Source of the DNA: a plasmid
Reading direction: 5' to 3' (one strand)
Length of the DNA stretch: 64,000 bases
Sequence record: NZ_CP024587.1
The notes below the pieces were generated by a model. It saw only the letters and a program-made list of their open reading frames with translations, did no database searches and was not told where the DNA came from. How positions within the stretch are numbered: position 1 is the stretch's first letter; each line of letters begins with the position of its first letter. Made by a program: the position numbers and the translations under genes. Positions 6,332 through 46,812 of the stretch are shown here, piece after piece.

Positions 6332-6338
6332 GGCTCCG

Positions 6339-16013: not shown

Positions 16014-16065
16014 GGGAGCATAAAAGGTAAGGGAGGACGCGACGGCAGGGGAAGGAGATGGACTC

Positions 16066-16140
16066 TGTGCCACCCTCGGCCGGATCGCCGCAAGGGTGCG
16101 TCGGCTCACGCCTCCCGCCGCTGCGCGGCGCCCTTGCCCC
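16066..16140 (+). promoter_or_regulatory. Hairpin motif copy b (GCCACCCTCGGCC...CCGCAAGGGTGCGTCGG...GCGGCGCCCTTGCCCC)
   Basis: Ends 64 bp before GTG 16204. Confidence 0.45.
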
Positions 16141-16203
16141 GCTCCGCCCGGGGCGGCTGCGCGTGGGGGTCTTCGAGAAGAAGATCAGCAGGAGAGGCTA
16201 CCC

Positions 16204-17976: not shown

Positions 17977-18030
17977 GGAGGCGGATTCGAGAGGAGGGAA
18001 GGGAGAGGAACGAGGGGGCGGGGGAGGCCC

Positions 18031-18111
18031 TGCCACCCTCGGCCAGGACGCGGCAAGGGTGCGTCGCTCCGCTCCCGCCGCTGCGCGGCGCCCTTGCCCC
18101 GCCCCGGCCGG
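18031..18111 (+). promoter_or_regulatory. Hairpin motif copy c (same GCCACCCTCGGCC prefix as copy b)
   Basis: Ends 55 bp before ATG 18166. Confidence 0.45.
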
Positions 18112-18165
18112 GGCGGCCGGCGGGCTGGGTCTTCGGGAAGAAGACGCAGCAGAAGGAACGGGATC

Positions 18166-20576: not shown

Positions 20577-20610
20577 GGCAGGAGAGATGAGAGACAGGGA
20601 GGAGGGGCGT

Positions 20611-20680
20611 GCCGCACCCCGTCCCCCGCCGCAAGGGCAGGGGCCTGACGGCCCGCCGCTGCGCGGCGCCCTTGCCCCGG
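20611..20680 (+). promoter_or_regulatory. Hairpin motif copy d
   Basis: CCGCAAGGGCAGG...GCGGCGCCCTTGCCCC ending 50 bp before ATG 20730. Confidence 0.4.
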
Positions 20681-20729
20681 GGGCACGGGGCGCCGGCGAC
20701 AGGGGAGGTGTTCGGAAAGGAACACCGCC

Positions 20730-21366: not shown

Positions 21367-21405
21367 TCCGGTGATCCCGGAAGAAACGGGGCATCGGGAG
21401 AGCAG

Positions 21406-21500
21406 GGCCGTCCCGCACCGGGGACGGCCGCCGCAAGGGGCCGTCGGCTGGCGCCTCCCGCGCTGCGCGCGCCCTTGCCCCAGCCGCCCCGGATGCGGGT
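21406..21500 (+). promoter_or_regulatory. Hairpin motif copy e (extra 5-prime hairpin GGCCGTCCC-GCACC-GGGACGGCC plus core)
   Basis: Near-identical to copy f over about 90 bp. Ends 31 bp before ATG 21531. Confidence 0.5.
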
Positions 21501-21530
21501 TCGGGTCGCATCGCGAAAGGAGACAGGGCG

Positions 21531-21845: not shown

Positions 21846-21897
21846 GGCAGGCGGAGGAGAAGGAAACCAGCGGCAGAGAGAGGGGAGGGAGAGGCGA

Positions 21898-21990
21898 GCC
21901 GTCCCGCACCGGGGACGGCCGCCGCAAGGGTTCGTCGGCTGGCGCCTCCCGCGCTGCGCGCGCCCTTGCCCCGGCCGCCCCGGATGCGGG
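21898..21990 (+). promoter_or_regulatory. Hairpin motif copy f
   Basis: Ends 39 bp before ATG 22029 (ardC). Confidence 0.5.
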
Positions 21991-22028
21991 GGCGGGGAGG
22001 TGTTCCGAGAGAATGAAAGGGAACACCG

Positions 22029-23003
22029 ATGGCCCATCCCCGCCGCCAGTCGTCCGAACGCCCGGCGTCCCGCGACCACTACGCCGAGATCACGGCCCAG
22101 GTGATCGCGGCACTGGAGGCGGGCACCCTGCCGTGGCGCCGTCCCTGGGACCAGGACAAGGCCGGCGCCGGTCCGCTCTCGCCGCGCAATGCCACCACCG
22201 GCCGCCGTTATCACGGGATCAACCTGCTGCTGCTCGGCATGACGGGCATGGCCTTCGCCGGCACCGACCCCCGGTGGCTGACCTACAAGCAGGCCGAGGC
22301 GAAGGGCTGGCAGGTCCGCCGCGGCGAGCGCGGCTCGCGCGTGTTCTTCTTCCGCAAGCTGACCCTGCGCGACGGCGACGCCGCGCCGGATGCCGGCGGC
22401 GAGGGGGAGGGGGCCACCCGCACCGTGCCGGTGCTGCGCGCCTACACCGTATTCCACGCGAGCCAGGTGGACGGCATCGCCCCCTTCGAGGCGCCTTCCG
22501 TCGAGGAGGCGTCCTGGCGCACGCCCGAGGCAGCCGGGACCATCATGCGCAACAGCGGCGTGGTGTTCCGCGAAGGCGGCGACCGTGCCTTCTACTGCCC
22601 CGCCACCGACCACATCCAACTGCCCCCACGCGCCGCCTTCGCGAGTCCGGAAGGCTATTGCGCGACGGCGCTGCACGAGCTGGCGCACGCCTCCGGCGCG
22701 ACGCACCGGCTCGACCGCGACCTGACCGGCCGCTTCGGCAGCCAGGCCTACGCGCAGGAGGAGCTGCGCGCCGAGTTGGCCTCCTGCTTCATCGGCGCCG
22801 AGCTGGGCCTGCCCTGCGATATCCCCAACCACGCCAGCTACGTGGCGTCGTGGCTCAGGACGCTGCGCGAGGACAAGCGCGAGATCTTCCGCGCCGCGGC
22901 GGAGGCACAGAGGATCACCGACTACCTGCTGGCCTTCCACCCCGGATACGCCCGGATCGCGGCCGAGGACGCACGGCGCGACGAGGCCGGCGACGAGGCG
23001 TGA
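22029..23003 (+). CDS. ardC: ArdC-family antirestriction protein (N-terminal ssDNA-binding domain + C-terminal zincin-like HExxH metalloprotease)
   Basis: 324 aa, with LHELAHA as the HExxH motif. Confidence 0.8.
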   Translation: MAHPRRQSSERPASRDHYAEITAQVIAALEAGTLPWRRPWDQDKAGAGPLSPRNATTGRRYHGINLLLLGMTGMAFAGTDPRWLTYKQAEAKGWQVRRGERGSRVFFFRKLTLRDGDAAPDAGGEGEGATRTVPVLRAYTVFHASQVDGIAPFEAPSVEEASWRTPEAAGTIMRNSGVVFREGGDRAFYCPATDHIQLPPRAAFASPEGYCATALHELAHASGATHRLDRDLTGRFGSQAYAQEELRAELASCFIGAELGLPCDIPNHASYVASWLRTLREDKREIFRAAAEAQRITDYLLAFHPGYARIAAEDARRDEAGDEA

Positions 23004-24234: not shown

Positions 24235-25753
24235 TACGTAGTCGGCCTTGAACAACGTCTTCAGGCTGTCGCCCCTGCGAGCAGGGTGCGGCCTGTCGGG
24301 ACGCTGGCTTGGCTGATCGGGGTGAGGATTGCCTGTCGGAGGGCGGCGAGGAGAGCGGCCAAAAGGGCCCTGAGGTGGGCGAGGATCTTGCGGATGTTGT
24401 GGCCGCAGCCGCAGAGGACGGCGTAGAGAGCATCGCCGAGCGTGCCCTTGAGGGCGCAGCGGGCGAGGCGGCCATCGGTCTTCATGTGGCCGATCTCGGG
24501 CTCGATGGCGCTGCGGCGGCGGAGCAGCCGGCGCAGGCGGGGCGTGAGGCCGCGGCTGGTGCCGCTGACGAGCACCCTGGTTGCCGTGACGCCATGGCCG
24601 CGGTAGCCGCGATCGACCACGGCGAGGCTGGGACGCTGGCCGGTGAGGGTCTCGACCTGCTGGAGGGCGTCGGCGAGGGTGTGGCCGTCGTAGGGATTGC
24701 CGGGCTGGCTGCGCATGCCGACGACGAAGCCACCGGCGAGGGTGGTGGCGATGCTGACCTTCGTGCCGAACTCGTAGCGCACCCGCGCCTTGCCCTTGGC
24801 GATGCAGTCCACCTCGGGCTCGTGCAGGGCGTAGAGCTTGCGGGACGACTTCGGTGTCTGGAGCAGCAGGCGGGTGACGAGGGCGATGCGCTGCTCGATG
24901 CGCGCCCGCAGTGGCCCGTCAGGGACGGCGCCGAGCTTGCGTTCAACATCGCGCAGGATGCGGCCGGTGTAGCCCTTGAGCGTGCGCAACGCCTTGCGCA
25001 TGCGGCGGAACTGCCGGGCGTGGGCGTAGCGCCCCACCTGGCCGGCCAGGCGCGGCGCCAGGCGATTGTAGTTCTGGCGCAGGGCGATCCCGGCCTTGTG
25101 CGCCAGCGTCACCAGCGAGTGGCGGGCCCGCTCATAGAGGCGGCTGTCGGTCGGATGGGCGATGGCCTTCTCCATCACTGTGGTGTCCACTGCGATCTCG
25201 GCCAAGCTGTTCGACGTCACAGCTCCCGAAGCCTGAGCCGCCTCGATCGTCCTGGTCAGCAACCACTCGACACCTTCCTCACCGATGCGACCGCGCCAGC
25301 GGCTGAGAGAGGAGGGATGGATGGGCGCACGGTGCTGGAAGAAGGTCTCACCCGTGAAGTGCTGGAAGTACGGGTTCTCCACCCAGCGCGCGAGCACCGC
25401 CTCGTCGGAGAGGCCATGGGCGTGCTGGAGGTACATCAGCCCGGCGACCAGACGCGGATGCGTGGCCGGCCGTCCCTCAGCGGCGGGGAAGAAGCCGGCC
25501 CATTCCCGCTCGAACCAGGACCAGTCGATCAGCGCCGCCAGCCGCACCAGTTCGTGCCGCCCATCGATCATGTCGACCAGCCGCGGCCGCAGCAGATCGG
25601 CCTGTTCCGGCGGGCGCGGGCGGTGCTTCATGCCCACAAGATTCGCAGGGTTTGTCGTCGAAAACAATCGAACCCTGCAAATCCAGGTCGCCGAGCCCGG
25701 AAAATCTCACAGCTAGATCAGTGCCTTACGAGTTATTCAAGGCCGACTACGTA
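24235..25753 (-). mobile_element. IS5/IS1182-like insertion sequence, 1519 bp, 22-bp terminal inverted repeats TACGTAGTCGGCCTTGAA(C/T)AAC, no obvious target duplication
   Basis: IRs read directly at 24235-24256 and 25732-25753. One transposase ORF inside. Confidence 0.7.
24261..25667 (-). CDS. DDE transposase, IS5-family (IS1182-like)
   Basis: 468 aa. InsH-like N-terminal region (LLRPRLVDMIDGRHELVRLAALIDW) and a DDE-type C-terminal region. Family call is approximate. Confidence 0.7.
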   Translation of the reverse strand: MFSTTNPANLVGMKHRPRPPEQADLLRPRLVDMIDGRHELVRLAALIDWSWFEREWAGFFPAAEGRPATHPRLVAGLMYLQHAHGLSDEAVLARWVENPYFQHFTGETFFQHRAPIHPSSLSRWRGRIGEEGVEWLLTRTIEAAQASGAVTSNSLAEIAVDTTVMEKAIAHPTDSRLYERARHSLVTLAHKAGIALRQNYNRLAPRLAGQVGRYAHARQFRRMRKALRTLKGYTGRILRDVERKLGAVPDGPLRARIEQRIALVTRLLLQTPKSSRKLYALHEPEVDCIAKGKARVRYEFGTKVSIATTLAGGFVVGMRSQPGNPYDGHTLADALQQVETLTGQRPSLAVVDRGYRGHGVTATRVLVSGTSRGLTPRLRRLLRRRSAIEPEIGHMKTDGRLARCALKGTLGDALYAVLCGCGHNIRKILAHLRALLAALLAALRQAILTPISQASVPTGRTLLAGATA

Positions 25754-26381: not shown

Positions 26382-26640
26382 CTGCAAGCCTGCAAGCCTG
26401 AGTTCGGGAAATCCCGAAAGAGGGAAAGCAGGAAAGCAGGAACGAGAGAATCAGGGGCGAGAAGCTGCTGGCATCCCGGCCGTCCCGGCACCGCTGCGCT
26501 CCATGGCCGGCAGCGCAACCCAGCCCGTCTGGGCCGCAACCCTGCGGGCCGCGTCCTGCGCCGGCCAGGGCCGCTCCCCGGCCATGGTGCCGGCCCGCCC
26601 GCGCTGCCCGCGGCGGAGGGGTCATAGGAACAGACCCACA
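26382..26640 (+). promoter_or_regulatory. Regulatory cassette B: direct repeats (CAAGCCTG x2; GGAAAGCA x2-3), IR TTCGGGAAATCCCGAA, then a ~170-bp GC-rich leader paralogous to 32676-32850
   Basis: Read directly. About 75% identity to cassette C by eye. Confidence 0.5.
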
Positions 26641-26850
26641 GGAGGCTCCATGGGAAACAGGTACGAGGCCTGCCATTCGCACAGCCAGTTCCCCGGCACC
26701 GCCGTCACCGTGACCGCCCCCTGGCCGCTGCGCCAGAGCCCGCCGTCCTGGCTGGCCTGACAGCCTGAGCGGCACCTGAACGGCCCGCTCTCCCCGAAAC
26801 CTCCGCCCCTCCTCCAACCACCGCATCGCACAGGTCACCCGGTCGCCCGC

Positions 26851-29800
26851 ATGGGCCGCCGGGCGGCCGCGCATGCGCGCTCGGGAACCCGCGCCATGGC
26901 CAAGGCCAAGTCCTCCCTCGACCAGCTCAGCCTGTTCGACACCACCGCCCTGACCTCCTTCTCGCTCGACGGCGGCGGCTTCGGTACGCTGCTGCCGCCT
27001 CTCGATGCGACGGAGGAGGAGCCGGACGACGCGCCGATCGCGCCCGCCGTGCCGCGCGTGGTCGCCCACGACTTCCGCCTCGCCGGCGACCGTGGCCTCG
27101 CCAGCAGCTGGAAGGCCCGTGCCGCAGGCAACCTCGCCGCCATCCGGCTGATGCAGCGCATCGAGGCCGAGACGCGTCCGGCGACCGCCGAGGAGCAGGC
27201 GGTGCTGGCGCGCTTCGTGGGCTACGGCGCCTCCGACTTGGCCAACGCGCTGTTCCGCCGCCCCGGCGAGGCATGGCGGGAGGGCTGGGCCGAGCAGGGC
27301 GACGGGCTCGAGCAGGCCGTGTCCGCCGCGGAGCTGGCCAGCCTCGCCCGCTGCACGCAGTACGCACACTTCACCCCCGAATACGTCGTGCGCGCCGTCT
27401 GGGCCGGGCTGACCCGGCTCGGCTTCCGTCAGGGCAGCATCCTGGAGCCCGGTTGCGGCACCGGCCTGTTCCTGGCCCTGCGGCCGGAGGGGATGGCGGA
27501 CTGCTCCACCGTGACCGGGATTGAGATGGACACGGTCACCGCCCGTATCGCGGCGCTGCTCCATCCGAAGGCCTGGATCCGCCAGGAGGACTTCACCCGC
27601 GCCCGTATCCCCGAGACCTTCGACCTCGCCCTCGGCAACCCGCCCTTCTCGGACCGCACGGTGCGGGCCGACGACCCGGCCGGCAAGCTCGGCCTCAAGC
27701 TGCACGACTACTTCATCGCCCGTGCCGTCGAGCGCCTGAAGCCCGGCGGATTGGCCGCCTTCGTCACCAGCCACGGCACGCTGGACAAGGTGGACCCCAA
27801 GGCACGCGAGCACATCGCGGGGATGGCCGACCTGGTGGGCGCGATCCGCCTGCCCGCCGGCAGCTTCGCCGCGGCCGCCGGCACCGACGTCGTGGTGGAC
27901 ATCCTGTTCCTGCAGCGCCGCGAGCGCGGTGCCGAGCCGAACGGGGTGGAATGGGCCCATCTCGCGGAGGTGGTCCCGGCCGAAGCCGGCGAGGCGGCGA
28001 TCCACGTCAACGCCTGGTTCGCCGCGCACCCGGAGACGGTGCTGGGCCGCCACGGATGGACCACCGGCCCGTTCGGCCTGGCCTACGACTGTGCCCGCGA
28101 CGGACGTGACCTGGACGCCGCCCTGGCCGAAGCCGTCGCCCGGCTGCCCCAAGGCATCCACCAGCCGCCGGCGGACGCCGTGGCGGCGCGCCCGGCGAGG
28201 ACCGCCGCCCGGGCCGGCACCGCCGCCGAGGGTGCGACGATCAAGGAGGGCTCCTACCTGATCGGCGAGGGTGGCGTGCTGTTGCAGGTGGTGGACGGCA
28301 CCGCCGAGCCGGTCGCGGTGAAGTCCGGCAAGGGCACGGTCGGCCTGTTCGCGAAGCACGCCCGCATCATCCGCGGCCTGATCCCGGTCCGCGAGGCGGT
28401 GCGCGGGGTGATCCGTGCCCAGGAGGCCGACCAGCCCTTCGGCGCCGCCCAGGTGCGGCTGCGGGCGGCCTATGGCAGCTTCGTGCGCGCCTTCGGGCCG
28501 ATCAACCTCACCAACATCAGCACCAGCACGGATGAGGAAACGGGTGAGGTCCGCGAGACCGTGCGCCGGCCCAACCTGCAGCCCTTCCTCGATGACCCGG
28601 ATTGCTGGCTGGTCTCCTCGATCGAGGAGTACGATCCCGAGACCGGCACCGCCCGCAAGGGGCCGATCTTCACCGAGCGGGTGATCCACGCCCCGGCCGA
28701 GCCGATGATCGTCTCGGCCGCCGACGCGCTGGCCGTGACGCTGGCCGAGCGTGGCGTGGTGGACCTAGCCCATGCCTGCGACCTCCTCGGCCGCGACCGC
28801 GAGACGGTGCTGGCCGAGCTGGGCGACACCGTGTTCCTCGATCCTGACCTGACCACCGAGGGCTTCGAGGCCTGGCAGACCGCCGACGAGTACCTGTCGG
28901 GGCAGGTCCGCCGCAAGCTCGCCGCGGCCCGTGCCGCCGCGACGCTGGATGCGCGCTACGCCCGCAACGTCGTGGCGCTGGAGCGGGTGCAGCCCGAGGA
29001 CCTGCGCCCCTCCGACATCACCGCCCGCCTCGGCGCCCCCTGGATCCCGGCCCGGGACGTCGCGGCCTTCATCCAGGAGGTGATCGGGGTGGAGACGCCG
29101 GTCCGTCACACCGTCGAGGTGGCGCATTGGAGCATCGACGTCCACCGTTTCGTGGGGCTGGCCTCCGCCACCTCGGAGTGGGGGACGCACCGCCGCCACG
29201 CGGGCGAATTGCTGGACGATGCCCTGAATGCCTCGATCCCGCAGATCTGGGACGTGTGGCGGGACGCCGAGGGCGAGCACCGGCAGCTCAACGCCCAGGA
29301 AACCGAGGCGGTGAAGGACAAGCTGGCGAAGATCAAGGACGCCTTCGAGCGTTGGGTCTGGACCGACAGCGACCGCGCCGAGCGACTGGTCCGCCTGTAT
29401 AATGACGCCTTCAACAGCCTGGTTCCCCGGCACTTCTCGGGCGAGCACCTGCAGCTGCCGGGCGCCTCCACGGTGATCCAGCTGCGCCCGCACCAGAAGC
29501 GTGTCGTCTGGCGCATCGTCGCCTCGGGGCAGACCTACGTCGCCCACGCGGTCGGCGCCGGCAAGACCTTCACCATCGCCGCCGCGATCATGGAGCAGAA
29601 GCGCCTCGGCCTGATCTCCAAGGCCATGCTGGCCGTGCCCGGCCACTGCCTGGCCCAGGCCTCGCGCGAGTTCCTGCAACTCTATCCGGGTGCCCGCATC
29701 CTGGTGGCCGACGAGACCAACTTCTCCAAGGACAAGCGCGCGCGCTTCCTGGCCCGGGCGGCCACCGCCAACTGGGACTGCATCATCATCACCCACTCGG

Positions 29801-31968
29801 CCTTCAAGTTCATCGCCGCCCCGGCCGCGTTCGAGCGTGGTCTCGTACAGGACCAGCTCGATGCCTACGCGGCCCTGCTGGAGAAGCTCGATGGCGACGA
29901 CCGCATCGCCCGCAAGCGCATCGAGCGCATGAAGGAAGGCATGCAGGAGAAGCTCGAAGCGCTCGCCTCGGCCAAGGACGACATGCTGACCATCGCCGAG
30001 ATGGGCGTCGACCAGGTGATCGCCGACGAGGCACAGGAGTTCCGGAAGCTCTCCTTCGCCACCAACATGGGCAACCTCAAGGGCATCGCCCCGGACGGCT
30101 CGCAGCGCGCCTGGGATCTGTTCGTGAAGTCACGCTTCGTGGCGACCGTGAACCCGGGCCGGGCGCTGATCCTCGCCTCCGGCACTCCCATCACCAATAC
30201 CCTGGGCGAGATGTTCACCCTGCAGCGCTTCATGCAGCCGGAGATGCTGGAGGAGCGCGGCATCCAGGAGTTCGACGCCTGGGCCGCCAACTTCGGGGAC
30301 ACGCGCACCGAGCTGGAGCTGCAGCCCTCGGGCCTCTACAAGCCGGTGACCCGCTTCTCGGAGTTCGTCAACGTCGCCGACCTGATCGCCATGTTCCGCT
30401 CGGTCGCGGACGTCGTGCTCAAGGACGACCTGCGCCAGTACCTGAAGCTGCCCGCCATCCAGGGCGGCCGGCGCCAGATCGTCACCGCCCCCGCCAGCCC
30501 GGCCTTCCGGGACTACCAGAGCGCCCTCGCGGCGCGCATCAAGGCCATCGAGGCGCGCAAGGGCAAGCCCCAGAAGGGCGAGGACATCCTGCTCTCGGTC
30601 ATCACCGATGGCCGCCATGCCGCCATCGACCTGCGTTTCGTCGTGGCGGAGGCGGAGGATGACCCCGGCAACAAGCTCAACGCGCTGATCGACAACGCCT
30701 TCCGCATCTGGTCGGAGACGCGCGGCAAGGTCTTCCGCAACCCGGACGGCACGCCGCACCCGACCCCCGGTGCCACGCAGATGATCTTCTCCGACCTCGG
30801 CACCGAAGGGGCAGCGGCGACGCGGGGCTTCTCGGCCTACCGCTGGATCCGGCAGCGCCTGATCGGCCTCGGCGTGCCGGCCGAGCGCATCGCCTTCATG
30901 CAGGACTACAAGAAGGCCGAGGCCAAGCAGGGCCTGTTCACCAAGCTGAACAACGGCCAGGTGGATTTCCTGCTCGGTTCCTCGGCCACCATGGGAACGG
31001 GGGTGAACGCCCAACGCCGGCTGGTGGCGCTGCATCACCTCGACGTGCCCTGGCTGCCCTCCGAGATCGAGCAGCGCGAGGGCCGTATCGAGCGGCAGGG
31101 CAACCAGAACGACGAGATCGGCCTCTACGCCTACGCGACCCTGGGCTCGATGGACGCCCAGATGTGGCAGAACAACGAGCGCAAGGCGCGCTTCATCGCG
31201 GCGGCGCTGGGCGGCGACCGCTCGATCCGCCGGCTGGAGGATATCGGCTCCCAGGCGAACCAGTTCGCGATGGCCAAGGCCATCGCCTCGGGCGACCCCC
31301 GCCTGATGCAGAAGGCTGGGCTGGAGGCCGAGATCGCCCGGCTGCAGCGCCAACGGGCGGCGCATTTCGACGACCAGCACGCGGTGCGGCGGCGCGTCGC
31401 CGAGGCGCGCTCGGCCATCGGCCGTGCCACCCAGGCCATCACCGACACCGAGGCGGACCTCGCGCGCCGGGTATCGACCCGGGGCGAGGAGTTCCGCATG
31501 GAGGTGCAGGGCAGGACCTTCGCCGAACGCAAGGAGGCGGGGGCCGCACTGCTGAGGATCCTGCGCACTGTGCAGTTCGAGGGCCGCCAGGGCGATTGGG
31601 AGCTCGGCGCGGTCGGCGGCTTTCCGCTGACGCTGGAGGCCCGCCGTTACCGCCAGGGGGCCGATCTGGACATCCACCTGCTGCTGGGCCGCGCCTACGG
31701 CCAGCAGGAGATCCAGGTGGAGGACGACCTGTCCGCGCTCGGACTGGTGGCCCGGCTCGAATACGCCCTGGGACGCTTCGAGGCGGAATTGGCCGGGCAC
31801 CGGCGGGACCTGGAGGAAGCCGAGCGCCGGCTGCCGGCCTACCAGGCCCGGCTGGGCGACGCCTTCGAGTTCCAGGCCGAGCTGGATGCCAAGCTGGCTG
31901 AAATGCAGGCACTGGAGGCGGATCTGGCGCAGAGTGGCAAGGAGGAGGCGGTTGCCGCGGCGGCATGA
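26851..31968 (+). CDS. Large fusion protein: N6-adenine DNA methyltransferase (NPPF) + SF2/SNF2-like helicase; phage P1 DarB-like antirestriction candidate
   Basis: 1705 aa. MTase motif I EPGCGTGLF and motif IV LGNPPF. Helicase GAGKT, DEAQ, ASGTP and QREGRIERQG. The alternative start is ATG 26896 (MAKAKSS). Confidence 0.85.
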   Translation: MGRRAAAHARSGTRAMAKAKSSLDQLSLFDTTALTSFSLDGGGFGTLLPPLDATEEEPDDAPIAPAVPRVVAHDFRLAGDRGLASSWKARAAGNLAAIRLMQRIEAETRPATAEEQAVLARFVGYGASDLANALFRRPGEAWREGWAEQGDGLEQAVSAAELASLARCTQYAHFTPEYVVRAVWAGLTRLGFRQGSILEPGCGTGLFLALRPEGMADCSTVTGIEMDTVTARIAALLHPKAWIRQEDFTRARIPETFDLALGNPPFSDRTVRADDPAGKLGLKLHDYFIARAVERLKPGGLAAFVTSHGTLDKVDPKAREHIAGMADLVGAIRLPAGSFAAAAGTDVVVDILFLQRRERGAEPNGVEWAHLAEVVPAEAGEAAIHVNAWFAAHPETVLGRHGWTTGPFGLAYDCARDGRDLDAALAEAVARLPQGIHQPPADAVAARPARTAARAGTAAEGATIKEGSYLIGEGGVLLQVVDGTAEPVAVKSGKGTVGLFAKHARIIRGLIPVREAVRGVIRAQEADQPFGAAQVRLRAAYGSFVRAFGPINLTNISTSTDEETGEVRETVRRPNLQPFLDDPDCWLVSSIEEYDPETGTARKGPIFTERVIHAPAEPMIVSAADALAVTLAERGVVDLAHACDLLGRDRETVLAELGDTVFLDPDLTTEGFEAWQTADEYLSGQVRRKLAAARAAATLDARYARNVVALERVQPEDLRPSDITARLGAPWIPARDVAAFIQEVIGVETPVRHTVEVAHWSIDVHRFVGLASATSEWGTHRRHAGELLDDALNASIPQIWDVWRDAEGEHRQLNAQETEAVKDKLAKIKDAFERWVWTDSDRAERLVRLYNDAFNSLVPRHFSGEHLQLPGASTVIQLRPHQKRVVWRIVASGQTYVAHAVGAGKTFTIAAAIMEQKRLGLISKAMLAVPGHCLAQASREFLQLYPGARILVADETNFSKDKRARFLARAATANWDCIIITHSAFKFIAAPAAFERGLVQDQLDAYAALLEKLDGDDRIARKRIERMKEGMQEKLEALASAKDDMLTIAEMGVDQVIADEAQEFRKLSFATNMGNLKGIAPDGSQRAWDLFVKSRFVATVNPGRALILASGTPITNTLGEMFTLQRFMQPEMLEERGIQEFDAWAANFGDTRTELELQPSGLYKPVTRFSEFVNVADLIAMFRSVADVVLKDDLRQYLKLPAIQGGRRQIVTAPASPAFRDYQSALAARIKAIEARKGKPQKGEDILLSVITDGRHAAIDLRFVVAEAEDDPGNKLNALIDNAFRIWSETRGKVFRNPDGTPHPTPGATQMIFSDLGTEGAAATRGFSAYRWIRQRLIGLGVPAERIAFMQDYKKAEAKQGLFTKLNNGQVDFLLGSSATMGTGVNAQRRLVALHHLDVPWLPSEIEQREGRIERQGNQNDEIGLYAYATLGSMDAQMWQNNERKARFIAAALGGDRSIRRLEDIGSQANQFAMAKAIASGDPRLMQKAGLEAEIARLQRQRAAHFDDQHAVRRRVAEARSAIGRATQAITDTEADLARRVSTRGEEFRMEVQGRTFAERKEAGAALLRILRTVQFEGRQGDWELGAVGGFPLTLEARRYRQGADLDIHLLLGRAYGQQEIQVEDDLSALGLVARLEYALGRFEAELAGHRRDLEEAERRLPAYQARLGDAFEFQAELDAKLAEMQALEADLAQSGKEEAVAAAA

Positions 31969-31976
31969 CTGTCCAT

Positions 31977-32016
31977 CCCGAATATCCATATTTTCTGGAT
32001 ATTCGGGATCCGGATC
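31977..32016. promoter_or_regulatory. Perfect 12-bp inverted repeat CCCGAATATCCA-N7-TGGATATTCGGG followed by palindrome GATCCGGATC; candidate brnA operator
   Basis: Read directly. AT-rich, about 100 bp upstream of brnA. Confidence 0.45.
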
Positions 32017-32113
32017 TCGGCCGCGAGGCGCTTGAAGCAGGCAGAGGAGGAGGAACGGGTACGTCTCGTCAGCGCGCGGCGGGCGACCAGGGCGGAACGG
32101 AGGGCCTACGAGG

Positions 32114-32398
32114 ATGGCAGCGATCAGTAAGGAGCAGCGCGAGCGCCTGGAACGGCTGGCCGCCGCGCCGGAGGATGAGATCGACACCACGGACATTCCG
32201 GAAGTCCGGGACTGGTCCGATGCGGTGCGCGGCGGCCTCCACAGGCCGCGCAAGGAAGCCATCACGATCCGGCTGGATGCGGATGTGCTGGCCTGGTTCA
32301 GGGAGCACGTCCAATCGGGCCGGGGCTATCAGACCGAGATCAACCGAGTGCTACGCAAGCATGTGCGGAATGCCGCGAAGGGGGGCAAGACCCTGTAG
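32114..32398 (+). CDS. brnA: BrnA-family (DUF4415) antitoxin-like protein, apparently orphan (no BrnT/DUF497 partner)
   Basis: 94 aa. DTTDIPE...ITIRLDADVLAWFR...GYQTEINRVLRKH matches the BrnA pattern as I recall it. Only 145 bp of non-coding DNA lie upstream. Confidence 0.6.
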   Translation: MAAISKEQRERLERLAAAPEDEIDTTDIPEVRDWSDAVRGGLHRPRKEAITIRLDADVLAWFREHVQSGRGYQTEINRVLRKHVRNAAKGGKTL

Positions 32399-32616
32399 CT
32401 CGGCCTTGGACCGGCCGTGCAAAAAGAAAGGCGGCGCCCGAGGGTGCCGCCCAAGTTTAGGGAGGAAACGTCCAAGTAAGGCGGCAACCCAGCGGGTGCC
32501 GTGTCGCCGCACCCCGCACCATGACCCAGGCTGCCCTTCGGGTCCAATCAAATGACGCGCCGCAGCAGAACGGGCCGAGCCGGTGTCCTCGTGCTCCGCT
32601 CTCATGCCTGGGATGT

Positions 32617-32850
32617 TGGAAAGCCGGAAAGCCGGAAAGCGGGAAATCGGGAAACACGGAAAGCGGGGGAGAGGAGGAGCAGGAGCGCTGGCATCCGGGC
32701 ACCGCCCGGCACCGCTTCGCTCCACGGCCGCCTGCGCAGCCCTGCCCCGCTGGGCCGCAGCCCGCCCTGCCGGGCTGGGCCGCGTCCGGCGACGGGTCAG
32801 GGCCGCTCGCCCGCCGTGGTGCCGGACGGCCCCCGGCCGCCGGCGTGGGA
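32617..32850 (+). promoter_or_regulatory. Regulatory cassette C: six tandem 8-bp repeats GGAAAGCCG/GAAAGCGG/GAAATCGG/GAAACACG then a ~170-bp leader paralogous to cassette B
   Basis: Read directly. Confidence 0.5.
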
Positions 32851-32906
32851 GGGGTCAGCCCAGGAATGGGGTGACGGGAACCCCGGTCCGGAGAGCCACT
32901 CTCGCC

Positions 32907-34673
32907 ATGAAGATCGTCCACGCCAACCCGCGCAAGCTGCGCGACAACCCCGAGAACCCCCGCCGCACCAGGCCGAGCGCGGAGGCCGACGCGCAGTTGC
33001 TCGCCAATATCCAGGCGGTCGGCATCCTGCAGCCGCCCACCGCGCGCGAGATCGCGGGTGAACTGGTCCTGATCGCCGGCCACCGTCGCCGCGACGCGGC
33101 CATCAAGGCGAAGCTGAAGGAGATCGCCGTCCTCGTCCGCGAGCCCGGCGACGACGCCGCGCAGGGCGGCGACGGCGTGCGGGCGCTGGCCGAAAACATG
33201 GTCCGCACCGCGATGAGCCCGGTAGACCAGTGGCGCGCCGTCGAGGCGCTGGTCGGGGAGGACTGGACCGAGGACGCCATCGCAGCCGCGCTGAACCTGC
33301 CGGTGCGCCGCATCCGCGCCCTGCGCCACCTCTCGCGCGTGCATCCGGCGATGCTGGACCACATGGCACGCGGCGACATGCCGACCGACCAGCAGCTCCG
33401 CACCATCGGCCTCGCCTCGGCCGAGGATCAGGCCTCGGTCTGGCAGAGGAGCAAGCCGAAGCGCGGCGAGCGCGCCCACTGGCACGGTATCGCCGCCGCC
33501 CTGGAGAAGCGCCGCATCCCCTTCGCCGTCGCCAGGTTCGGCGAGGCCGAGACCGAGGCCTTCGGGATCGTCTGGCAGGACGACCTGTTCGCCCCCGCCG
33601 GAGAGGAGGGCCGCTTCACCACCCAGCTCGACGCCTTCCTGCAGGCGCAGCAGGCGTGGCTGGAGGCCAACCTGCCAGACCGCGCCGTGCTCCTGGGCCT
33701 CGACGAGTGGGGCCGCGTCATGTTCCCCAAAGGGGCGCAGGAGCTCTACTACAAGCAGCCCCGCGACGAGTTCGACCGCATCGGCCTCACCGTCGATCCG
33801 CGCTCCGGCGAAGTGCGGCAGACGCTGTTCCGGGAGGCACCGCCCCGCGAGGAGCGCGGTGGCCGGGGCCGTGAGGCATCGGCCGATGGCACGGTGCTGC
33901 CCAAGGTCACCCGCCCGCCGCTGACCCAGAAGGGCGACGCCATGGTGGGCGACCTGCGCACCGACGCGCTGCACGAGGCTTTCGCGCAGGCCGAGATCCC
34001 GGACCAGACCCTGATCGGCCTGCTCGTGCTCGCGCTCGCCGGGCAGAACGTGCAGGTCCGCAGCGGCGCCAAGGGCGACGACCTGTACGCCGGAGCGCGC
34101 GCCGCGATCGCCGCCGGCCTCCTCGAAGGCGGCGTGCTCACCGCAGACGCGGACGCCCTGCGTGCCGCCGCCCGCGCCATGCTGCGCCAGGCGCTGTCCT
34201 GCCGGGTGGGCTTCTCCACCTCGGGCCTGGTCGCCCGCTACGCCGGGGTGGCTGTCGATGCCGACGCCTACCTTCCCACCACCGCCACCGAGGAGTTCCT
34301 GGCCCATCTGAGCAAGGACGCGATCATGGGCACGGCCAGCGCCAACAACGTGGCGCCGCGCAACACCGGCAAGGCAACCCGTGCTGCGGTGGTCGAGCGC
34401 TTCAAGGGGCAGACCTTCCTCCACCCGCTGGTGCGCTTCGCGCTGACCACGGAGGAGCAGCGCAAGTTGGCCGAGCAGCGGCAGCGGGAGGAGAGCCGCG
34501 CCGCCCTGCGCGCCAGCTGGCAGTCCTCTGGGGAGGATGATGGGGAGGACGAGAGCTCCGGCGAGGAAGAGACCGCGGGCAACATGGATATGGATGGCGA
34601 GGAGGTGGATCTCCCTACCGATGGCCTCCATCCGCCGTCCGGCAGCCAGCCCCCGGTTGTCCATACCACCTGA
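32907..34673 (+). CDS. ParB/Sulfiredoxin-domain protein (ParB-like nuclease/KorB-like), 588 aa with long C-terminal extension
   Basis: N-terminal MKIVHANPRKLRDNPENPRR...LIAGHRRRDA is ParB-box-like (GHRR). Acidic tail. Confidence 0.7.
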   Translation: MKIVHANPRKLRDNPENPRRTRPSAEADAQLLANIQAVGILQPPTAREIAGELVLIAGHRRRDAAIKAKLKEIAVLVREPGDDAAQGGDGVRALAENMVRTAMSPVDQWRAVEALVGEDWTEDAIAAALNLPVRRIRALRHLSRVHPAMLDHMARGDMPTDQQLRTIGLASAEDQASVWQRSKPKRGERAHWHGIAAALEKRRIPFAVARFGEAETEAFGIVWQDDLFAPAGEEGRFTTQLDAFLQAQQAWLEANLPDRAVLLGLDEWGRVMFPKGAQELYYKQPRDEFDRIGLTVDPRSGEVRQTLFREAPPREERGGRGREASADGTVLPKVTRPPLTQKGDAMVGDLRTDALHEAFAQAEIPDQTLIGLLVLALAGQNVQVRSGAKGDDLYAGARAAIAAGLLEGGVLTADADALRAAARAMLRQALSCRVGFSTSGLVARYAGVAVDADAYLPTTATEEFLAHLSKDAIMGTASANNVAPRNTGKATRAAVVERFKGQTFLHPLVRFALTTEEQRKLAEQRQREESRAALRASWQSSGEDDGEDESSGEEETAGNMDMDGEEVDLPTDGLHPPSGSQPPVVHTT

Positions 34674-34742
34674 CACCGCAAGCCTGGTCGCATGGCCGAC
34701 GCCCTGGGAAGGCTGAGAAGCGGACGCAGGACACGAAGGCCC

Positions 34743-34840
34743 CTGCCGCATCCGTCCCCCGGCGGCAAGGGTGCGTCGCTGCGCTCCCTCGCTCCGCTCG
34801 CCCTTGCCCCCGGCGGTCCGGAACGCGGCGGCTGGGGAGG
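34743..34840 (+). promoter_or_regulatory. Hairpin motif copy g (CCGCATCCGTCCCCCGGCGGCAAGGGTGCGTCG...CGCCCTTGCCCCCGGCGG)
   Basis: Near-identical to copy h. Ends about 20 bp before ATG 34861. Confidence 0.5.
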
Positions 34841-34860
34841 GATCAAAGTAGGAGAAAGCC

Positions 34861-35213: not shown

Positions 35214-35510
35214 ATGGCCTTCATCAGCGTTGCCACGCGAGGCTCGGAATCCGAGCCGTTCCAGCTCTCCGGCAAGAACCCGATCCAGCACACGCCGGGT
35301 GCCTGCGAGAGCCACGACCGCTTGTTCGAGTATGCCGGAGGCCACCTGGGCTTCTACGGCTTCCTGCGCGTCGCCAACGCCCGCATCTCCCGGCGCCTTG
35401 GGATCGGGCTGGCGGATCTGCCGGACCGGCTCTGGCGGGATGCCTACGACGACGAGGCGCACCCTTCCGAAGCCGCCGACGAGGCGATCGAGGAAGAAGC
35501 CGGCGAATAG
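35214..35510 (+). CDS. Hypothetical protein, 98 aa, acidic C-terminus
   Basis: ORF with a plausible RBS (GAGGTGG). Confidence 0.4.
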   Translation: MAFISVATRGSESEPFQLSGKNPIQHTPGACESHDRLFEYAGGHLGFYGFLRVANARISRRLGIGLADLPDRLWRDAYDDEAHPSEAADEAIEEEAGE

Positions 35511-35523
35511 GAGCGGAGGGAGC

Positions 35524-35624
35524 GCTGCCGCATCCGTCCCCCGGCGGCAAGGGTGCGTCGCTGCGCTCCCTCGCTCCGCTCGCCCTTGCCCCCGGCGGCC
35601 CGGAACGCGGCGGCTGGGGAGGGT
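35524..35624 (+). promoter_or_regulatory. Hairpin motif copy h
   Basis: About 95% identical to copy g over about 95 bp. Confidence 0.5.
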
Positions 35625-35693
35625 CGAGGAGAAAGCGGCCGGCAAGGCCGGGGCCACCTCGGCATCCCGAATCCCTGATGGGAGTTGAGCAAT

Positions 35694-39613: not shown

Positions 39614-39642
39614 AACGCGCACGAGGGCAGGACGGAAGATGG

Positions 39643-39735
39643 CTGCCGCATCGTGGCGTCCGCCGCAAGGGAAGGCGGCTGCGCCGCCCGCGCGAAGCGC
39701 GCGCCCTTGCCCCGGCCGCCGCCGTCGCGGCCGGC
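39643..39735 (+). promoter_or_regulatory. Hairpin motif copy i (CTGCCGCATCGTGGCGTCCGCCGCAAGGG...GCGCGCCCTTGCCCCGGCCGCC)
   Basis: Followed by a 12-codon mini-ORF (39756-39794) and then the gene at 39826. Confidence 0.45.
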
Positions 39736-39825
39736 CAGAACGGGACAGGGGAAAGAATGGCCAGGCGCGGCAGCGGGCGTCCGGCAAATCCCTGATCCAT
39801 CCATGACGCTGCGGAGATCAGCCCA

Positions 39826-41743: not shown

Positions 41744-42525
41744 GTTAGTCAATCATCCTGGACGCCAGTCGGGCAACCGTTCGGACCCAAGGCTCGCACG
41801 GCGCATCTTCAACGCCTGGCGCATCGGAACCGCCATGCCGATGCCCGACATCGCTCGCCTGCTGGACGTCTGCGGCCATGGGGCGGCTGCCAGCCGGATG
41901 CGCCAGACGGCGCTGGAGGGCGGCAGCAATCCCGGCCTGACCCTCGAAGAAGTCACCGATCTCATCTCCTGCTGGGCGGACGAAACACGGGCTGCGCGAC
42001 GCAACGCCACGCCTTGAGGCGGGCTCGCGGGGTGCCCCCTTTCGCCGCCGTCGACCGCGATCCCGCGGAAAGGATGGCATTGGCGCCGCTGATGCCCGGC
42101 TCCTGACCAGTCCATAGAGGTCGGATCAGGGATAGGATGGAGGGGGAGGAGGGGAATAGAGGAGATTGGAGACGGGCCAGGGGAGATGTCCGAAGGACGA
42201 GAGTGGGGAGACGTGTGTCGGCTACCTGCCCGTGCCGGCCGCATATCCTCGGGGTGCTGCGGTCTGAGCCACGGCGCCGGCCGCTCCTACCCCCGCTTTC
42301 CCCGAAGCCGGGGAAAGCGCCTCCGGCTCGGCACGCTCGGTCAGGGGCCGGGGCCGCGCCTTGCGCGGGGCGATGCCCCGCTGCGGCGCAACCCCAACCC
42401 CCTCCCTCACATGCCTCGGGGGTAGGACCGCCCGCCACCGCGCCTCTGTTCGACCGCACCCGAGGATACGCGACCGGCACGGGCCGGAAGCCTCTTCGGG
42501 GAGAGAGAATGAAGAGGATCTGACG

Positions 42526-43014
<489 letters not shown>

Positions 43015-46545: not shown

Positions 46546-46812
46546 TGTGTGGATCAGCCTTTCCCTCGCCCCTCTCTCCGGGCGGTAGCAGGACCGGGCT
46601 CCGCCCTGGCACGCCGGCTTAGGGCGACGACCCCGCGCCGCTGGCATGGCGAGTATTCGCTTGGCATTGCAAGTATAGCCGAAATATTCATGCGTCTCGA
46701 TTTGCCCCCGCCATGCCATCGTCTCGGGGCAGCCGCCCACGCCCGCGCACCAGGCCGGAACCCGGTCCTACTACCTGAGAGATGCGCGAGGGAAAGGCTG
46801 ATCCACACAAAC
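46546..46812. repeat. Long imperfect inverted repeat (arms about 70 bp at roughly 85% identity, spacer about 125 bp AT-rich) inside an 800-bp non-coding region; cruciform / MITE-like / structured RNA candidate
   Basis: Left arm GTGTGTGGATCAGCCTTTCCCTCGCC...GGACCGGGCTCCGCCCTGGCACGCC pairs with the reverse complement of ...GCGCACCAGGCCGGAACCCGGTCC...GCGAGGGAAAGGCTGATCCACACAAAC. Confidence 0.5.

What the first reader, a model, noticed from the sequence alone, without database searches (positions are those of the whole stretch)
26851..34673. Anti-restriction/establishment block: DarB-like MTase-helicase, orphan BrnA with a palindromic operator, and a ParB/Srx-like protein
The 1705-aa fusion of an N6-adenine MTase with an SF2 helicase resembles phage P1 DarB, which protects incoming DNA from type I restriction in cis. 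It is followed by a brnA-type antitoxin gene with no brnT partner but with a perfect operator palindrome (CCCGAATATCCA-N7-TGGATATTCGGG, 31977-32007). An orphan antitoxin on a transferred element could neutralise recipient BrnT-like toxins (anti-abortive-infection) or act purely as a regulator. The 588-aa ParB/Srx-like protein completes a trio typical of plasmid leading regions, but the specific combination and the shared leader cassette are notable.
Basis: partly seen in the sequence, partly recalled or inferred. Interest (0 to 1): 0.6.

Follow-up and report, generated by a model that had tools for sequence, protein, structure and literature searches.

The report
Plasmid establishment genes with decayed toxin-antitoxin
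This is the usual "first-to-enter" gene block of a Roseomonas conjugative plasmid: a DarB-type methylase-helicase and a ParB-type DNA clamp, with a broken toxin-antitoxin cassette between them, so the lone antitoxin is a deletion leftover; the conserved DNA hairpins in front of the genes are the more interesting feature.

Summary
All the sequence features exist as described. The 1705-aa protein is a true DarB homologue, with colinear hits to P1 DarB and about 41% identity over 95% of its length to phage "DarB-like" proteins. The 588-aa protein belongs to a ParB family (PRK13832) found next to DarB-like genes on 482 alphaproteobacterial plasmids. brnA is real but is not a designed orphan. The last 28 codons of brnT sit directly upstream. 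One relative has intact brnTA in the same slot and another keeps only a ~45-nt scar. The palindrome is not BrnA's operator: the closest relatives carry it over the promoter of a phd antitoxin gene, and the native brnTA promoter was deleted. One is an mmgR/suhB-family sRNA on the opposite strand (32414-32489). The other is that the "shared leader" is one of 11 co-oriented long hairpins, each preceding a leading-region gene. The parB-type hairpin shows covariation across two alphaproteobacterial orders and pairs better on the predicted transferred strand. It is a candidate single-strand promoter or roadblock analogous to F's Frpo/ssp, though no canonical -10 element was found. The trio is ordinary; the hairpins deserve follow-up.

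The parts
26466..26605 (-). Type-B leader hairpin upstream of the DarB-like gene. It is followed by a 36-codon ORF (26650-26760) with a good Shine-Dalgarno sequence.
   Evidence: nhmmer hit E 5e-19. Direct repeat D13 with the parB leader. DNA fold is -59.1 kcal/mol on the minus strand versus -51.9 on the plus strand.
26851..31968 (+). DarB-family N6-adenine methyltransferase / SF2 (SNF2-like) helicase fusion. An alternative start lies at 26896.
   Evidence: Pfam N6_Mtase, ResIII, SNF2-rel, Helicase_C. Three colinear BLASTP segments to P1 DarB. About 41% identity over 95% of length to Bcep22-like phage DarB-like proteins. NPPF, GxGxG, GAGKT, DEAQ and QREGR motifs can be read in the translation.
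31977..32007. Perfect 12-bp inverted repeat with a 7-nt spacer. It is AT-rich in a ~70% GC plasmid. Most likely a relic promoter/operator of a phd-type cassette.
   Evidence: Sequence. The same half-sites at the same spacing occur in CP015585 and CP025190, overlapping TTGAAT-17-TAAAAT just upstream of phd. It is absent from 8 other Roseomonas slots.
32044..32130 (+). brnT pseudogene remnant: the last 28 codons plus the stop. The only in-frame start candidate is TTG at 32032.
   Evidence: 85.4% identity over 82 nt to the brnT 3' end of AP031464.1, E 3e-17. Alignment A1. Translation reads ...RVRLVSARRATRAERRAYED..., matching the BrnT C-terminus. The reference gene is PF04365 at 79 bits.
32114..32398 (+). 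brnA antitoxin gene, intact, 94 aa.
   Evidence: PF14384 E 1e-15. 86% amino-acid identity to BrnA of AP031464.1. The identical protein with the identical junction occurs in 168 collection blocks.
32414..32489 (-). mmgR/suhB-family small RNA (Rfam clan CL00108) with a UUUCCUCCCUA loop and an intrinsic terminator. It is encoded antisense to the surrounding genes.
   Evidence: Rfam RF00519 at 57.2 bits (gathering score 41), full length. The same family occupies the same slot in four other Roseomonas plasmids.
32620..32684 (+). Purine-rich tract (GGAAAGC-type short repeats, GGAGG runs) preceding the hairpin.
   Evidence: Sequence. Equivalent tracts precede the hairpin in all relatives.
32685..32841 (-). 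Type-B leader hairpin upstream of parB. It is about 150 nt, imperfect, and carries a conserved asymmetric bulge.
   Evidence: Fold -72.7 kcal/mol, z -3.0. Covariation across 18 sequences: 93.4% of cells paired versus 79.5% in shuffles, and 21 of 37 pairs with double changes. Strand asymmetry: 61 G.U cells versus 7 A.C cells.
32907..34673 (+). ParB-CTPase-like protein of the PRK13832 family, 588 aa.
   Evidence: ParB_N E 6e-10. NF010406 at 603.8 bits over the full length. PDB matches to Spo0J/ParB/Noc N-terminal plus HTH regions only. 44% identity over the full length to the Bosea homologue. 482 plasmid records hold a homologue.

Best explanation
The interval is part of the establishment (leading-type) region of a Roseomonas conjugative megaplasmid. 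Its backbone is a conserved gene pair found on hundreds of alphaproteobacterial plasmids: a DarB-family methyltransferase-helicase followed by a ParB-CTPase-like protein. Each gene is preceded by a purine-rich tract and a long hairpin. By inference from P1 DarB, the DarB-like enzyme translocates on and modifies the incoming plasmid DNA, blunting type I restriction. By inference from its CTP-binding motifs and from F-plasmid HerB/YfjB, the ParB-like protein acts as a DNA clamp on plasmid or host DNA rather than as a partition protein. The short spacer between the two genes is an insertion hot spot. In this lineage it received a brnTA toxin-antitoxin cassette, and a ~250-bp deletion later removed the brnTA promoter/operator and the first ~70% of brnT. 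That left a dead toxin stub and an intact brnA. brnA is now reached only by read-through from the DarB-like gene or from a weak relic promoter that carries the palindrome. The palindrome is a dimer-binding operator shared with the phd cassette of the closest relatives, not a BrnA site. An antisense mmgR-family sRNA also occupies the slot. Shown: homologies, the brnT remnant, comparative slot structure, hairpin covariation. Inferred: biochemical roles, direction of transfer, timing of expression.
For: The region matches Roseomonas plasmids. Window map: RepC, imuB/dnaE2, DUF3991-Toprim, UvrD, ArdC, DarB-like, ParB-like, C5-MTase and SSB all lie on the + strand and point towards a TrwC relaxase at 53871. 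This is the same geometry as the F leading region. DarB homology. The MTase-SNF2 dyad is a known module of phages and conjugative elements (PMC5512222). ParB family. The DarB-ParB adjacency also occurs in Bosea, Bradyrhizobium, R. rhizogenes, pTi, pSinA, p42a and Komagataeibacter. brnT remnant. Slot series: the slot is empty in L006 and L008-L012; L001 has intact brnTA; the window has a truncated brnT; L007 keeps a ~45-nt scar; L002 and L005 have phd plus a truncated toxin start; Aureimonas has mqsRA; Afipia has IS110. Palindrome context. No phd gene and no second brnT occur in the window. sRNA.
Against: Neither oriT nor the nick site was identified, so the direction of transfer and the 'leading' status are inferred from gene content and orientation only. 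MOB-suite types some relatives as MOBP or non-mobilizable. No functional data exist for this DarB-like or ParB-like family. brnA is intact, and the deletion allele is found in many samples, including one contig whose DarB-like gene carries a divergent tract. Retention for a function therefore cannot be excluded. The origin of the 36 nt between the palindrome and the brnT stub is unclear.
Confidence: 0.7

Rival explanations
1. One reading: brnA is a selected orphan antitoxin. It would neutralise BrnT toxins of recipients or of competing sister plasmids (anti-addiction or anti-abortive infection) and would be autoregulated through the palindrome.
For: brnA is intact. The same deletion allele occurs in 168 collection blocks. 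Antitoxin-only remnants arose twice in this slot, brnA here and phd in L002/L005. A sister Roseomonas plasmid carries intact brnTA whose BrnA is 86% identical, so cross-neutralisation is plausible. Orphan antitoxins in leading regions have been proposed as anti-defence factors (PMC11541004).
Against: A brnT stub proves origin by deletion. Another relative has lost brnA as well, leaving only a scar. Losing the toxin first is the expected neutral order of toxin-antitoxin decay (established knowledge). The native brnTA promoter repeats are deleted, and the palindrome belongs to a phd context. The contigs carrying the allele are identical from the junction through parB. They therefore give no evidence of purifying selection.
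Confidence: 0.12
2. The leader hairpins act at the RNA level or are generic repeats. They could be 5'-UTR structures of the + strand mRNAs, mRNA stabilisers or terminators between genes, or REP-like intergenic repeats. On this view they have no role in single-stranded DNA.
For: They lie in intergenic spacers and would be transcribed by read-through. With RNA parameters on 131-nt windows, the + strand of several type-A copies folds as well as or better than the - strand. No canonical sigma-70 -10 hexamer was found in the arms (and reading of A4).
Against: In the conserved stems, wobble pairs fall on the minus strand. Type B has 61 G.U versus 7 A.C cells, and consensus energy is -38.2 (minus) versus -19.1 (plus). 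Type A has 8 G.U columns versus 1 A.C column. All 11 copies have one orientation and occur only in the 12.5-39.8 kb co-oriented block. No U-tracts follow them. The F Frpo zones show the same transferred-strand energy bias.
Confidence: 0.35
3. The ParB-like protein is an ordinary partition or regulatory ParB for this replicon (annotated 'plasmid partitioning protein'). The block would then serve maintenance rather than establishment.
For: NCBIfam PRK13832 is named 'plasmid partitioning protein'. The N-terminal ParB/HTH region matches Spo0J/ParB structures.
Against: No ParA gene is adjacent in the window or in 20 relatives. The constant neighbour is the DarB-like gene. The plasmid has a RepC-type replicon, and on repABC plasmids RepA/RepB provide partition (established knowledge; no repA or repB was identified in the window). 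The 400-aa C-terminal part has no ParB C-terminal domain match.
Confidence: 0.1
4. The MTase-helicase is part of a defence system (R-M, DISARM or BREX-like) that protects the host, rather than an anti-restriction factor.
For: There are weak partial matches to DrmD, BrxH, MADS and MTase models.
Against: The matches cover only single domains and score far below the curated cut-offs, for example 44 bits against 1100. No partner defence genes are adjacent. Full-length homology is to DarB-like proteins of phages and conjugative plasmids.
Confidence: 0.05

Closest known systems
Phage P1 DarB and 'DarB-like antirestriction' proteins of Bcep22-like Burkholderia/Ralstonia phages (the SWI2/SNF2 - N6A methylase module of Iyer et al. 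2017, PMC5512222)
   Same: Same domain order and colinear homology: MTase 30% identity, E 5e-24; helicase N-lobe E 2e-21; helicase C-lobe E 7e-11. About 41% identity over 95% of length to the Bcep22 group. Catalytic motifs are intact.
   Different: It is 1705 aa versus 2255 aa for P1 DarB and lacks the P1 C-terminal ~600 aa. It is plasmid-borne, so delivery cannot be by virion packaging. Anti-restriction activity is untested.
BrnTA type II toxin-antitoxin system (Brucella abortus BrnT/BrnA; PF04365/PF14384)
   Same: The BrnA domain is intact, and the brnT stop overlaps the brnA start as in intact operons.
   Different: brnT codons 1 to ~69 and the promoter/operator are deleted, so the locus is not a functional toxin-antitoxin system.
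F-plasmid leading-region ParB-like CTP clamp YfjB/HerB (PMC13370423), and ParB/Noc/KorB-type CTPases
   Same: N-terminal ParB CTP-binding fold plus an HTH region: 26% identity over 154 aa to YfjB, E 1e-6. Similar size (588 versus 652 aa), no ParA partner, and location among leading-region genes. The NPENPR, GHRRRDA and ENMVR motifs are read from the translation.
   Different: No detectable similarity beyond residue ~165. It belongs to a separate alphaproteobacterial family, PRK13832. DNA targets are unknown.
Frpo/ssi/ssp single-strand DNA promoters of F-like plasmids (Masai and Arai 1997; PMC11541004; bioRxiv 10.64898/2026.01.09.698686)
   Same: Long imperfect hairpins just upstream of leading-region genes, more stable on the strand that is the template for those genes. 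They show the same energy bias as the F zones. A conserved bulge lies on the arm that would act as the non-template strand, and a TTGAGC -35-like motif sits 17-18 nt before the hairpin base region.
   Different: No sequence similarity was noted by eye (no alignment against known Frpo/ssi sequences was run). The GC content is very high and there is no canonical -10 element. There are eleven copies per region rather than two or three. Activity is untested.
mmgR/suhB (RF00519) and the alpha-r14/15/35 'cuckoo' sRNA clan CL00108
   Same: Full-length covariance-model match with the conserved UUUCCUCCCUA loop and terminator.
   Different: It is plasmid-borne and sits antisense between two establishment genes. 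In p42a and an R. rhizogenes plasmid, the same slot holds ar15, another member of the clan, on the + strand.

Membership tests
DarB family (MTase-SNF2 helicase antirestriction proteins) | N-terminal N6-adenine methyltransferase domain with SAM-binding and NPPF motifs | tested here: met
   PF02384 E 3.5e-6. 30% identity over 210 aa to the P1 DarB MTase. EPGCGTG and NPPF are read.
DarB family (MTase-SNF2 helicase antirestriction proteins) | SF2/SNF2-like helicase core downstream of the MTase, colinear with P1 DarB | tested here: met
   ResIII, SNF2-rel and Helicase_C domains. BLASTP segments 822-1203 and 1384-1539 align to DarB 778-1199 and 1484-1646.
DarB family (MTase-SNF2 helicase antirestriction proteins) | Protects incoming DNA in cis from type I restriction | not testable with these tools
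   Needs conjugation assays into R-M-proficient recipients.
DarB family (MTase-SNF2 helicase antirestriction proteins) | Delivered with, or made immediately upon, DNA entry | not testable with these tools
   Only context is available: co-oriented leading-type genes.
BrnTA type II toxin-antitoxin system | BrnA antitoxin (PF14384) | tested here: met
   58.3 bits against a cut-off of 26.1.
BrnTA type II toxin-antitoxin system | Intact adjacent BrnT toxin (PF04365) | tested here: not met
   Only the last 28 codons remain. There is no Pfam hit on the stub and no other brnT in the window.
BrnTA type II toxin-antitoxin system | Own autoregulated promoter/operator upstream of brnT | tested here: not met
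   The GTACATACAAT/GTGCATACAAT repeat region of AP031464.1 is deleted from the window.
ParABS partition system | ParB N-terminal CTP-binding domain | tested here: met
   PF02195 E 6e-10. Spo0J/ParB/Noc structures match residues 9-175.
ParABS partition system | Adjacent ParA ATPase partner | tested here: not met
   The neighbours are the DarB-like gene upstream and small hypothetical genes downstream, in the window and in 20 relatives.
ParABS partition system | Cognate parS centromere | tested here: inconclusive
   The only strong palindrome nearby is absent from most relatives that keep the ParB-like gene. Its half-site is not enriched in the window.
Frpo/ssp single-strand promoters | Long hairpin on the transferred strand immediately upstream of leading-region genes | tested here: met
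   11 copies, one orientation. Covariation. Minus-strand wobble bias. The identity of the transferred strand is itself inferred.
Frpo/ssp single-strand promoters | -35 and -10 hexamers correctly placed in the stem | tested here: inconclusive
   A TTGAGC -35-like motif is conserved in Hyphomicrobiales copies with 17-18 nt spacing, but the -10 position reads CCCGAT/ACCGGT and similar. None was seen in type A.
Frpo/ssp single-strand promoters | Transcription or priming from single-stranded template | not testable with these tools
   Needs in vitro transcription or zygotic-induction reporters.
mmgR/suhB sRNA (RF00519) | Covariance-model score above the gathering threshold, with the conserved loop and terminator | tested here: met
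   57.2 bits against 41, model positions 1-77 of 77.

The most novel reading that the evidence does not exclude
The 'shared leader cassette' is a new class of element active in single-stranded DNA. Eleven co-oriented GC-rich hairpins (two type B, nine type A) would form on the incoming transferred strand and serve as zygotic promoters and/or replication roadblocks. They would be functional analogues of F's Frpo/ssp with no obvious sequence resemblance. On this view the DarB-like, ParB-like, ArdC and other establishment genes of alphaproteobacterial plasmids, including Ti/Ri and symbiotic plasmids, are expressed before the complementary strand is made. The plasmid's own UvrD would later resolve the hairpins.
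Probability: 0.3. Interest if true: 0.7.

Novelty: new member of a known kind. Interest (0 to 1): 0.38.

Why it matters
The trio itself adds little. DarB-like/ParB-like pairs are common and already annotated on alphaproteobacterial plasmids, and the lone antitoxin is a decay product. The comparison does show that the spacer between the two genes is a recurrent landing site for toxin-antitoxin cassettes and small RNAs. It also shows that the genes of this region are each preceded by a conserved, covarying hairpin that pairs best on the strand expected to enter the recipient. If these hairpins are single-strand promoters or roadblocks, early 'zygotic' expression of anti-defence genes would extend from enterobacterial F-like plasmids to the large plasmid families of Rhizobiales and Acetobacteraceae. 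That would also give a direct handle for testing how Ti, Ri and symbiotic plasmids establish in new hosts.

Tried and rejected
(1) I scanned genome contigs with the ParB-like protein to collect relatives. Plasmid records were fetched one by one instead.

(2) I scanned metagenome contigs for GAATATCCA-N7-TGGATATTC. It gave over 120 contigs, but they are AT-rich (median GC 35%), carry unrelated recurrent spacers, and have no phd, brnA or brnT homologue nearby. This says nothing about the Roseomonas palindrome.

(3) A sigma-70 promoter and intrinsic terminator scan of 31800-33000 found nothing. The window's palindrome promoter (ATGACT-18-TATTTT) is only 8 of 12 by eye.

(4) A half-site search in the window found no enrichment: 5 matches against 2.6 expected. 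The palindrome is therefore not a dispersed parS-like site.

(5) PADLOC and NCBIfam defence models gave only partial domain matches.

(6) Rfam at E-value threshold was run on the parB leader only (31900-32950) and gave no family; the darB leader was covered only by the gathering-threshold scan of the whole window.

(7) I tried to test selection on brnA from natural variants. All ten contigs carrying the allele are identical from the junction through parB, so the test is uninformative.

(8) I looked for a canonical -10 element in the hairpin arms. None was found.

(9) The sRNA seed versus + strand duplex scan put 7 of the top 24 trans sites in leader purine tracts. Such tracts match any anti-SD seed, so I treat this only as a lead.

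Full report
OBSERVATION.
- The 1705-aa ORF lies at 26851-31968.
- A 94-aa brnA lies at 32114-32398, matching PF14384 at E 1e-15.
- The perfect palindrome CCCGAATATCCA-N7-TGGATATTCGGG is at 31977-32007. Its fold z-score is -5.75.
- A 588-aa ParB_N protein starts at ATG 32907 and ends at 34673.
- A leader element is shared by the first and third genes (D13).

SOURCE AND CONTEXT. The window has about 70% GC. The interval matches Roseomonas plasmids, best to R. gilardii CP015585 at 95% identity. One NCBI contig, from GCA_054574535.1, is 100% identical over 6.3 kb.

Gene calls and Pfam give this map:
- RepC (3074-4441)
- imuB/dnaE2
- DUF3991-Toprim (12.5 kb)
- UvrD (13947-16013)
- an HATPase protein
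- DUF4326
- ArdC (22029-23003)
- an IS5-type transposase on the minus strand
- the DarB-like gene, brnA and the ParB-like gene
- a C5 DNA methyltransferase
- SSB (42361-43014)
- a TrwC relaxase (53871-56993, + strand)
- MutS and a coupling protein, both on the minus strand

All plus-strand genes from 12.5 to 43 kb point towards the relaxase. This is the geometry of the F leading region. I did not identify oriT or the nick site. 'Leading region' and 'minus strand = transferred strand' are therefore inferences.

THE METHYLTRANSFERASE-HELICASE. Pfam finds N6_Mtase, ResIII, SNF2-rel and Helicase_C. BLASTP against P1 DarB itself gives three colinear segments:
- MTase: 30% identity over 210 aa, E 5e-24
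- helicase N-lobe: 25% identity over 432 aa, E 2e-21
- helicase C-lobe: E 7e-11

P1 DarB has the same Pfam architecture. Against phage genomes the protein aligns over 95% of its length, at about 41% identity, with the 'DarB-like antirestriction' proteins of Bcep22-like Burkholderia and Ralstonia phages. The SAM-binding, NPPF, Walker A, DEAQ and motif VI residues are intact. 'DarB-like' is therefore a homology statement, not only a resemblance. The module is already described as common to phages and conjugative elements (PMC5512222), and darB genes have been noted in leading regions (PMC11541004). Defence-system models match only single domains, far below their cut-offs.

brnA IS A DELETION SURVIVOR. 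R. mucosa plasmid AP031464.1 carries intact brnT (PF04365, 79 bits) and brnA in exactly this slot.

Aligning it with the window shows that the window keeps only the last 28 codons of brnT, at 32044-32130. This stretch is 85% identical over 82 nt, E 3e-17. It translates to ...RVRLVSARRATRAERRAYED.... About 250 bp are missing: the brnTA promoter, with its GTACATACAAT/GTGCATACAAT repeats, and brnT codons 1 to ~69. The only in-frame start candidate is a TTG at 32032. The resulting 32-aa peptide could at most preserve translational coupling to brnA.

Plasmid CP025192 keeps an even smaller scar of about 45 nt, comprising the brnT end and the first brnA codons. Seven other Roseomonas plasmids have a bare 244-411-bp spacer. 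In CP015585 and CP025190 the slot holds a phd/yefM antitoxin (PF02604) followed by a truncated toxin start.

Other plasmid families carry mqsRA, an IS110 or a CoiA gene in the same position. The slot is thus a cargo hot spot in which toxin-antitoxin cassettes arrive and decay, toxin first. This is the expected neutral order.

The deletion allele is widespread: 168 collection blocks hold the identical BrnA, and all ten contigs I read share an identical 148-nt junction. Those contigs are identical from the junction through parB, so they say nothing about selection.

THE PALINDROME. It is found only in the window, CP015585 and CP025190. In the two relatives, the same half-sites (GAATATCCA) at the same spacing overlap a good promoter, TTGAAT-17-TAAAAT. 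That promoter lies about 20 nt upstream of the phd start. Homology with the window ends just after the palindrome. The plasmid with intact brnTA lacks it.

Conserved half-sites with a variable spacer indicate a dimeric protein operator, most simply that of the Phd-type cassette. No phd gene is present in the window. The half-site is not enriched elsewhere in the window. It is therefore a relic promoter/operator, not BrnA's site.

THE ParB-LIKE PROTEIN. It matches NCBIfam PRK13832 over its full length, at 603.8 bits against a cut-off of 640. Solved ParB/Spo0J/Noc structures match only residues 9-175.

The NPENPR, GHRRRDA and ENMVR motifs expected of CTP-binding ParB proteins are read directly from the translation. 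Their interpretation rests on established ParB literature. Homologues occur in 482 plasmid records: Agrobacterium 177, Rhizobium 100, Bradyrhizobium 40 and others, of which 331 are typed as conjugative. In nearly all the examples I fetched, the homologue lies directly downstream of a DarB-like gene and has no ParA partner.

Similarity to F-plasmid YfjB/HerB is limited to the ParB/HTH part, E 1e-6. HerB is a leading-region CTP clamp that reprograms the recipient (PMC13370423). It is the best functional analogue, but membership of that family is not shown.

(a) A small RNA. Rfam finds a full-length mmgR/suhB-family sRNA on the minus strand at 32414-32489, at 57.2 bits against a gathering score of 41. 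The same family sits in the same slot in four other Roseomonas plasmids. In p42a and an R. rhizogenes plasmid the slot holds ar15, another member of the same clan, on the plus strand.

(b) The hairpin leaders. The 'shared leader' is one of 11 long hairpins: nine of type A and two of type B. All are in one orientation and all lie between 12.5 and 39.8 kb. Each precedes a plus-strand gene: ten by no more than ~70 nt, while the darB copy lies ~45 nt before a 36-codon ORF and ~245 nt before the DarB-like start.

The type-B hairpin upstream of parB is conserved in Roseomonas, Bosea, Bradyrhizobium, Rhizobium, Mesorhizobium, Nitratireductor, Agrobacterium pTi, pSinA, p42a, Aureimonas and Afipia. On 18 sequences the results are:
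- 37 consensus pairs, 21 with compensatory double changes.
- 93.4% of cells paired, against 79.5% in shuffles (0 of 500 shuffles as high) and 31-47% when partners are slid.
- Wobble pairs fall on the minus strand: 61 G.U cells against 7 A.C cells.
- Consensus energy is -38.2 kcal/mol on the minus strand against -19.1 on the plus strand (also for the Roseomonas-only and type-A sets).

The sequences fall mainly into two clades, so independent events are fewer than cells.

As an approximate positive control, the hairpin zones of the F leading region show the same 6-7 kcal/mol advantage on the transferred strand.

In Hyphomicrobiales copies, the arm that would act as the non-template strand reads TTGAGC-N17/18-CCCGAT-like, with the hairpin base about 7 nt further on. 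That is Frpo-like geometry with a poor -10 element.

In F, such stem-loops are both promoters and replication roadblocks resolved by UvrD (bioRxiv 10.64898/2026.01.09.698686). This plasmid encodes its own UvrD. No Rfam family matches the leaders.

MECHANISM (best estimate). On entry of the minus strand, the hairpins form and allow early expression and/or delay conversion to double-stranded DNA. The DarB-like enzyme modifies or shields the new DNA from type I restriction, alongside ArdC. The ParB-like clamp loads on DNA. brnA is a passenger. The homologies, the remnant, the comparative slot structure and the hairpin covariation are shown. Everything biochemical is inferred.

NOVELTY AND SCORE. 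The trio as proposed is a new member of known kinds. Its most distinctive claim, a designed orphan antitoxin with its own operator, fails. The hairpin leaders and the recurrent sRNA slot are the parts that could be new. I give 0.3 probability that the hairpins are elements active in single-stranded DNA. Overall interest is 0.38.

Noticed in passing
window 32414-32489 (-); also L008 6636-6711, L010 6631-6705, L011 6643-6718, L012 3949-4024; L031 353-463 (+) and L026 223-335 (+): An sRNA of Rfam clan CL00108 recurs in the spacer between the DarB-like and ParB-like genes. It is mmgR/suhB on the minus strand in Roseomonas plasmids, and ar15 on the plus strand in R. etli p42a and an R. rhizogenes plasmid. 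Its anti-SD-like CCUCCC loop could pair with the purine-rich tracts that precede the leader hairpins: 7 of the top 24 predicted trans sites lie there.
   Followed up: partly
window 12558-12692, 16049-16179, 18016-18139, 20590-20718, 21393-21516, 21884-22010, 34728-34849, 35507-35628, 39625-39752: Nine type-A hairpin cassettes (core GCAAGGG...CCCTTGC), all in the same orientation, each just upstream of a plus-strand gene. The genes include DUF3991-Toprim, HATPase, DUF4326, ArdC and the C5-MTase region. 12 of 25 stem columns show two or more Watson-Crick pair types among the paralogues. A type-A copy precedes parB in Komagataeibacter pKNA07.
   Followed up: partly
window 13947-16013 (+), 57046-59493 (-), 4814-9581 (+): The plasmid encodes its own UvrD helicase within the leading-type block. 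It also encodes a full-length MutS next to the relaxase and an imuB-dnaE2 mutasome cassette next to repC. The UvrD is notable because host UvrD resolves single-strand promoter stem-loops in F.
   Followed up: no
window 53289-53398: Seven tandem 11-nt repeats (GGCATCGGGCG / AGCATCGCGAG types) lie about 160 nt upstream of a small ORF (53558-53874) and about 470 nt upstream of the TrwC relaxase gene (53871). This is a candidate oriT accessory-protein or iteron-like array. The nick site was not identified.
   Followed up: partly
window 29632-31269, compared with L015-L023: Among contigs that are otherwise identical from the junction through parB, all differences are clustered tracts inside the 3' half of the DarB-like gene. 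For example, L022 has 129 differences within 30132-31155. This suggests gene conversion between paralogous darB-like genes of co-resident plasmids, or chimeric metagenome assembly.
   Followed up: partly
window 24261-25667 (-): An IS5-type DDE transposase (DUF772 + DDE_Tnp_1) lies between ArdC and the DarB-like leader. Relative CP015585 has a PAPS-reductase-family gene and small ORFs between ArdC and the DarB-like gene.
   Followed up: no
window 26650-26760 (+): A 36-codon ORF with a strong AGGAGG Shine-Dalgarno sequence lies directly after the type-B hairpin and about 90 nt before the DarB-like start. Relatives annotate 50- to 88-aa hypothetical genes in this position.
   Followed up: no
window 46546-46581 and 46774-46809: A 36-nt inverted repeat, 92% complementary, with arms 192 nt apart. 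It may mark the ends of a small mobile element (I3).
   Followed up: no
L035-L154 (metagenome contigs): The pattern GAATATCCA-N7-TGGATATTC recurs in over 120 AT-rich metagenome contigs with a few dominant spacers (GATTTCT, GATTTTT, GACTTTT). It therefore marks some unrelated conserved element in low-GC organisms.
   Followed up: no
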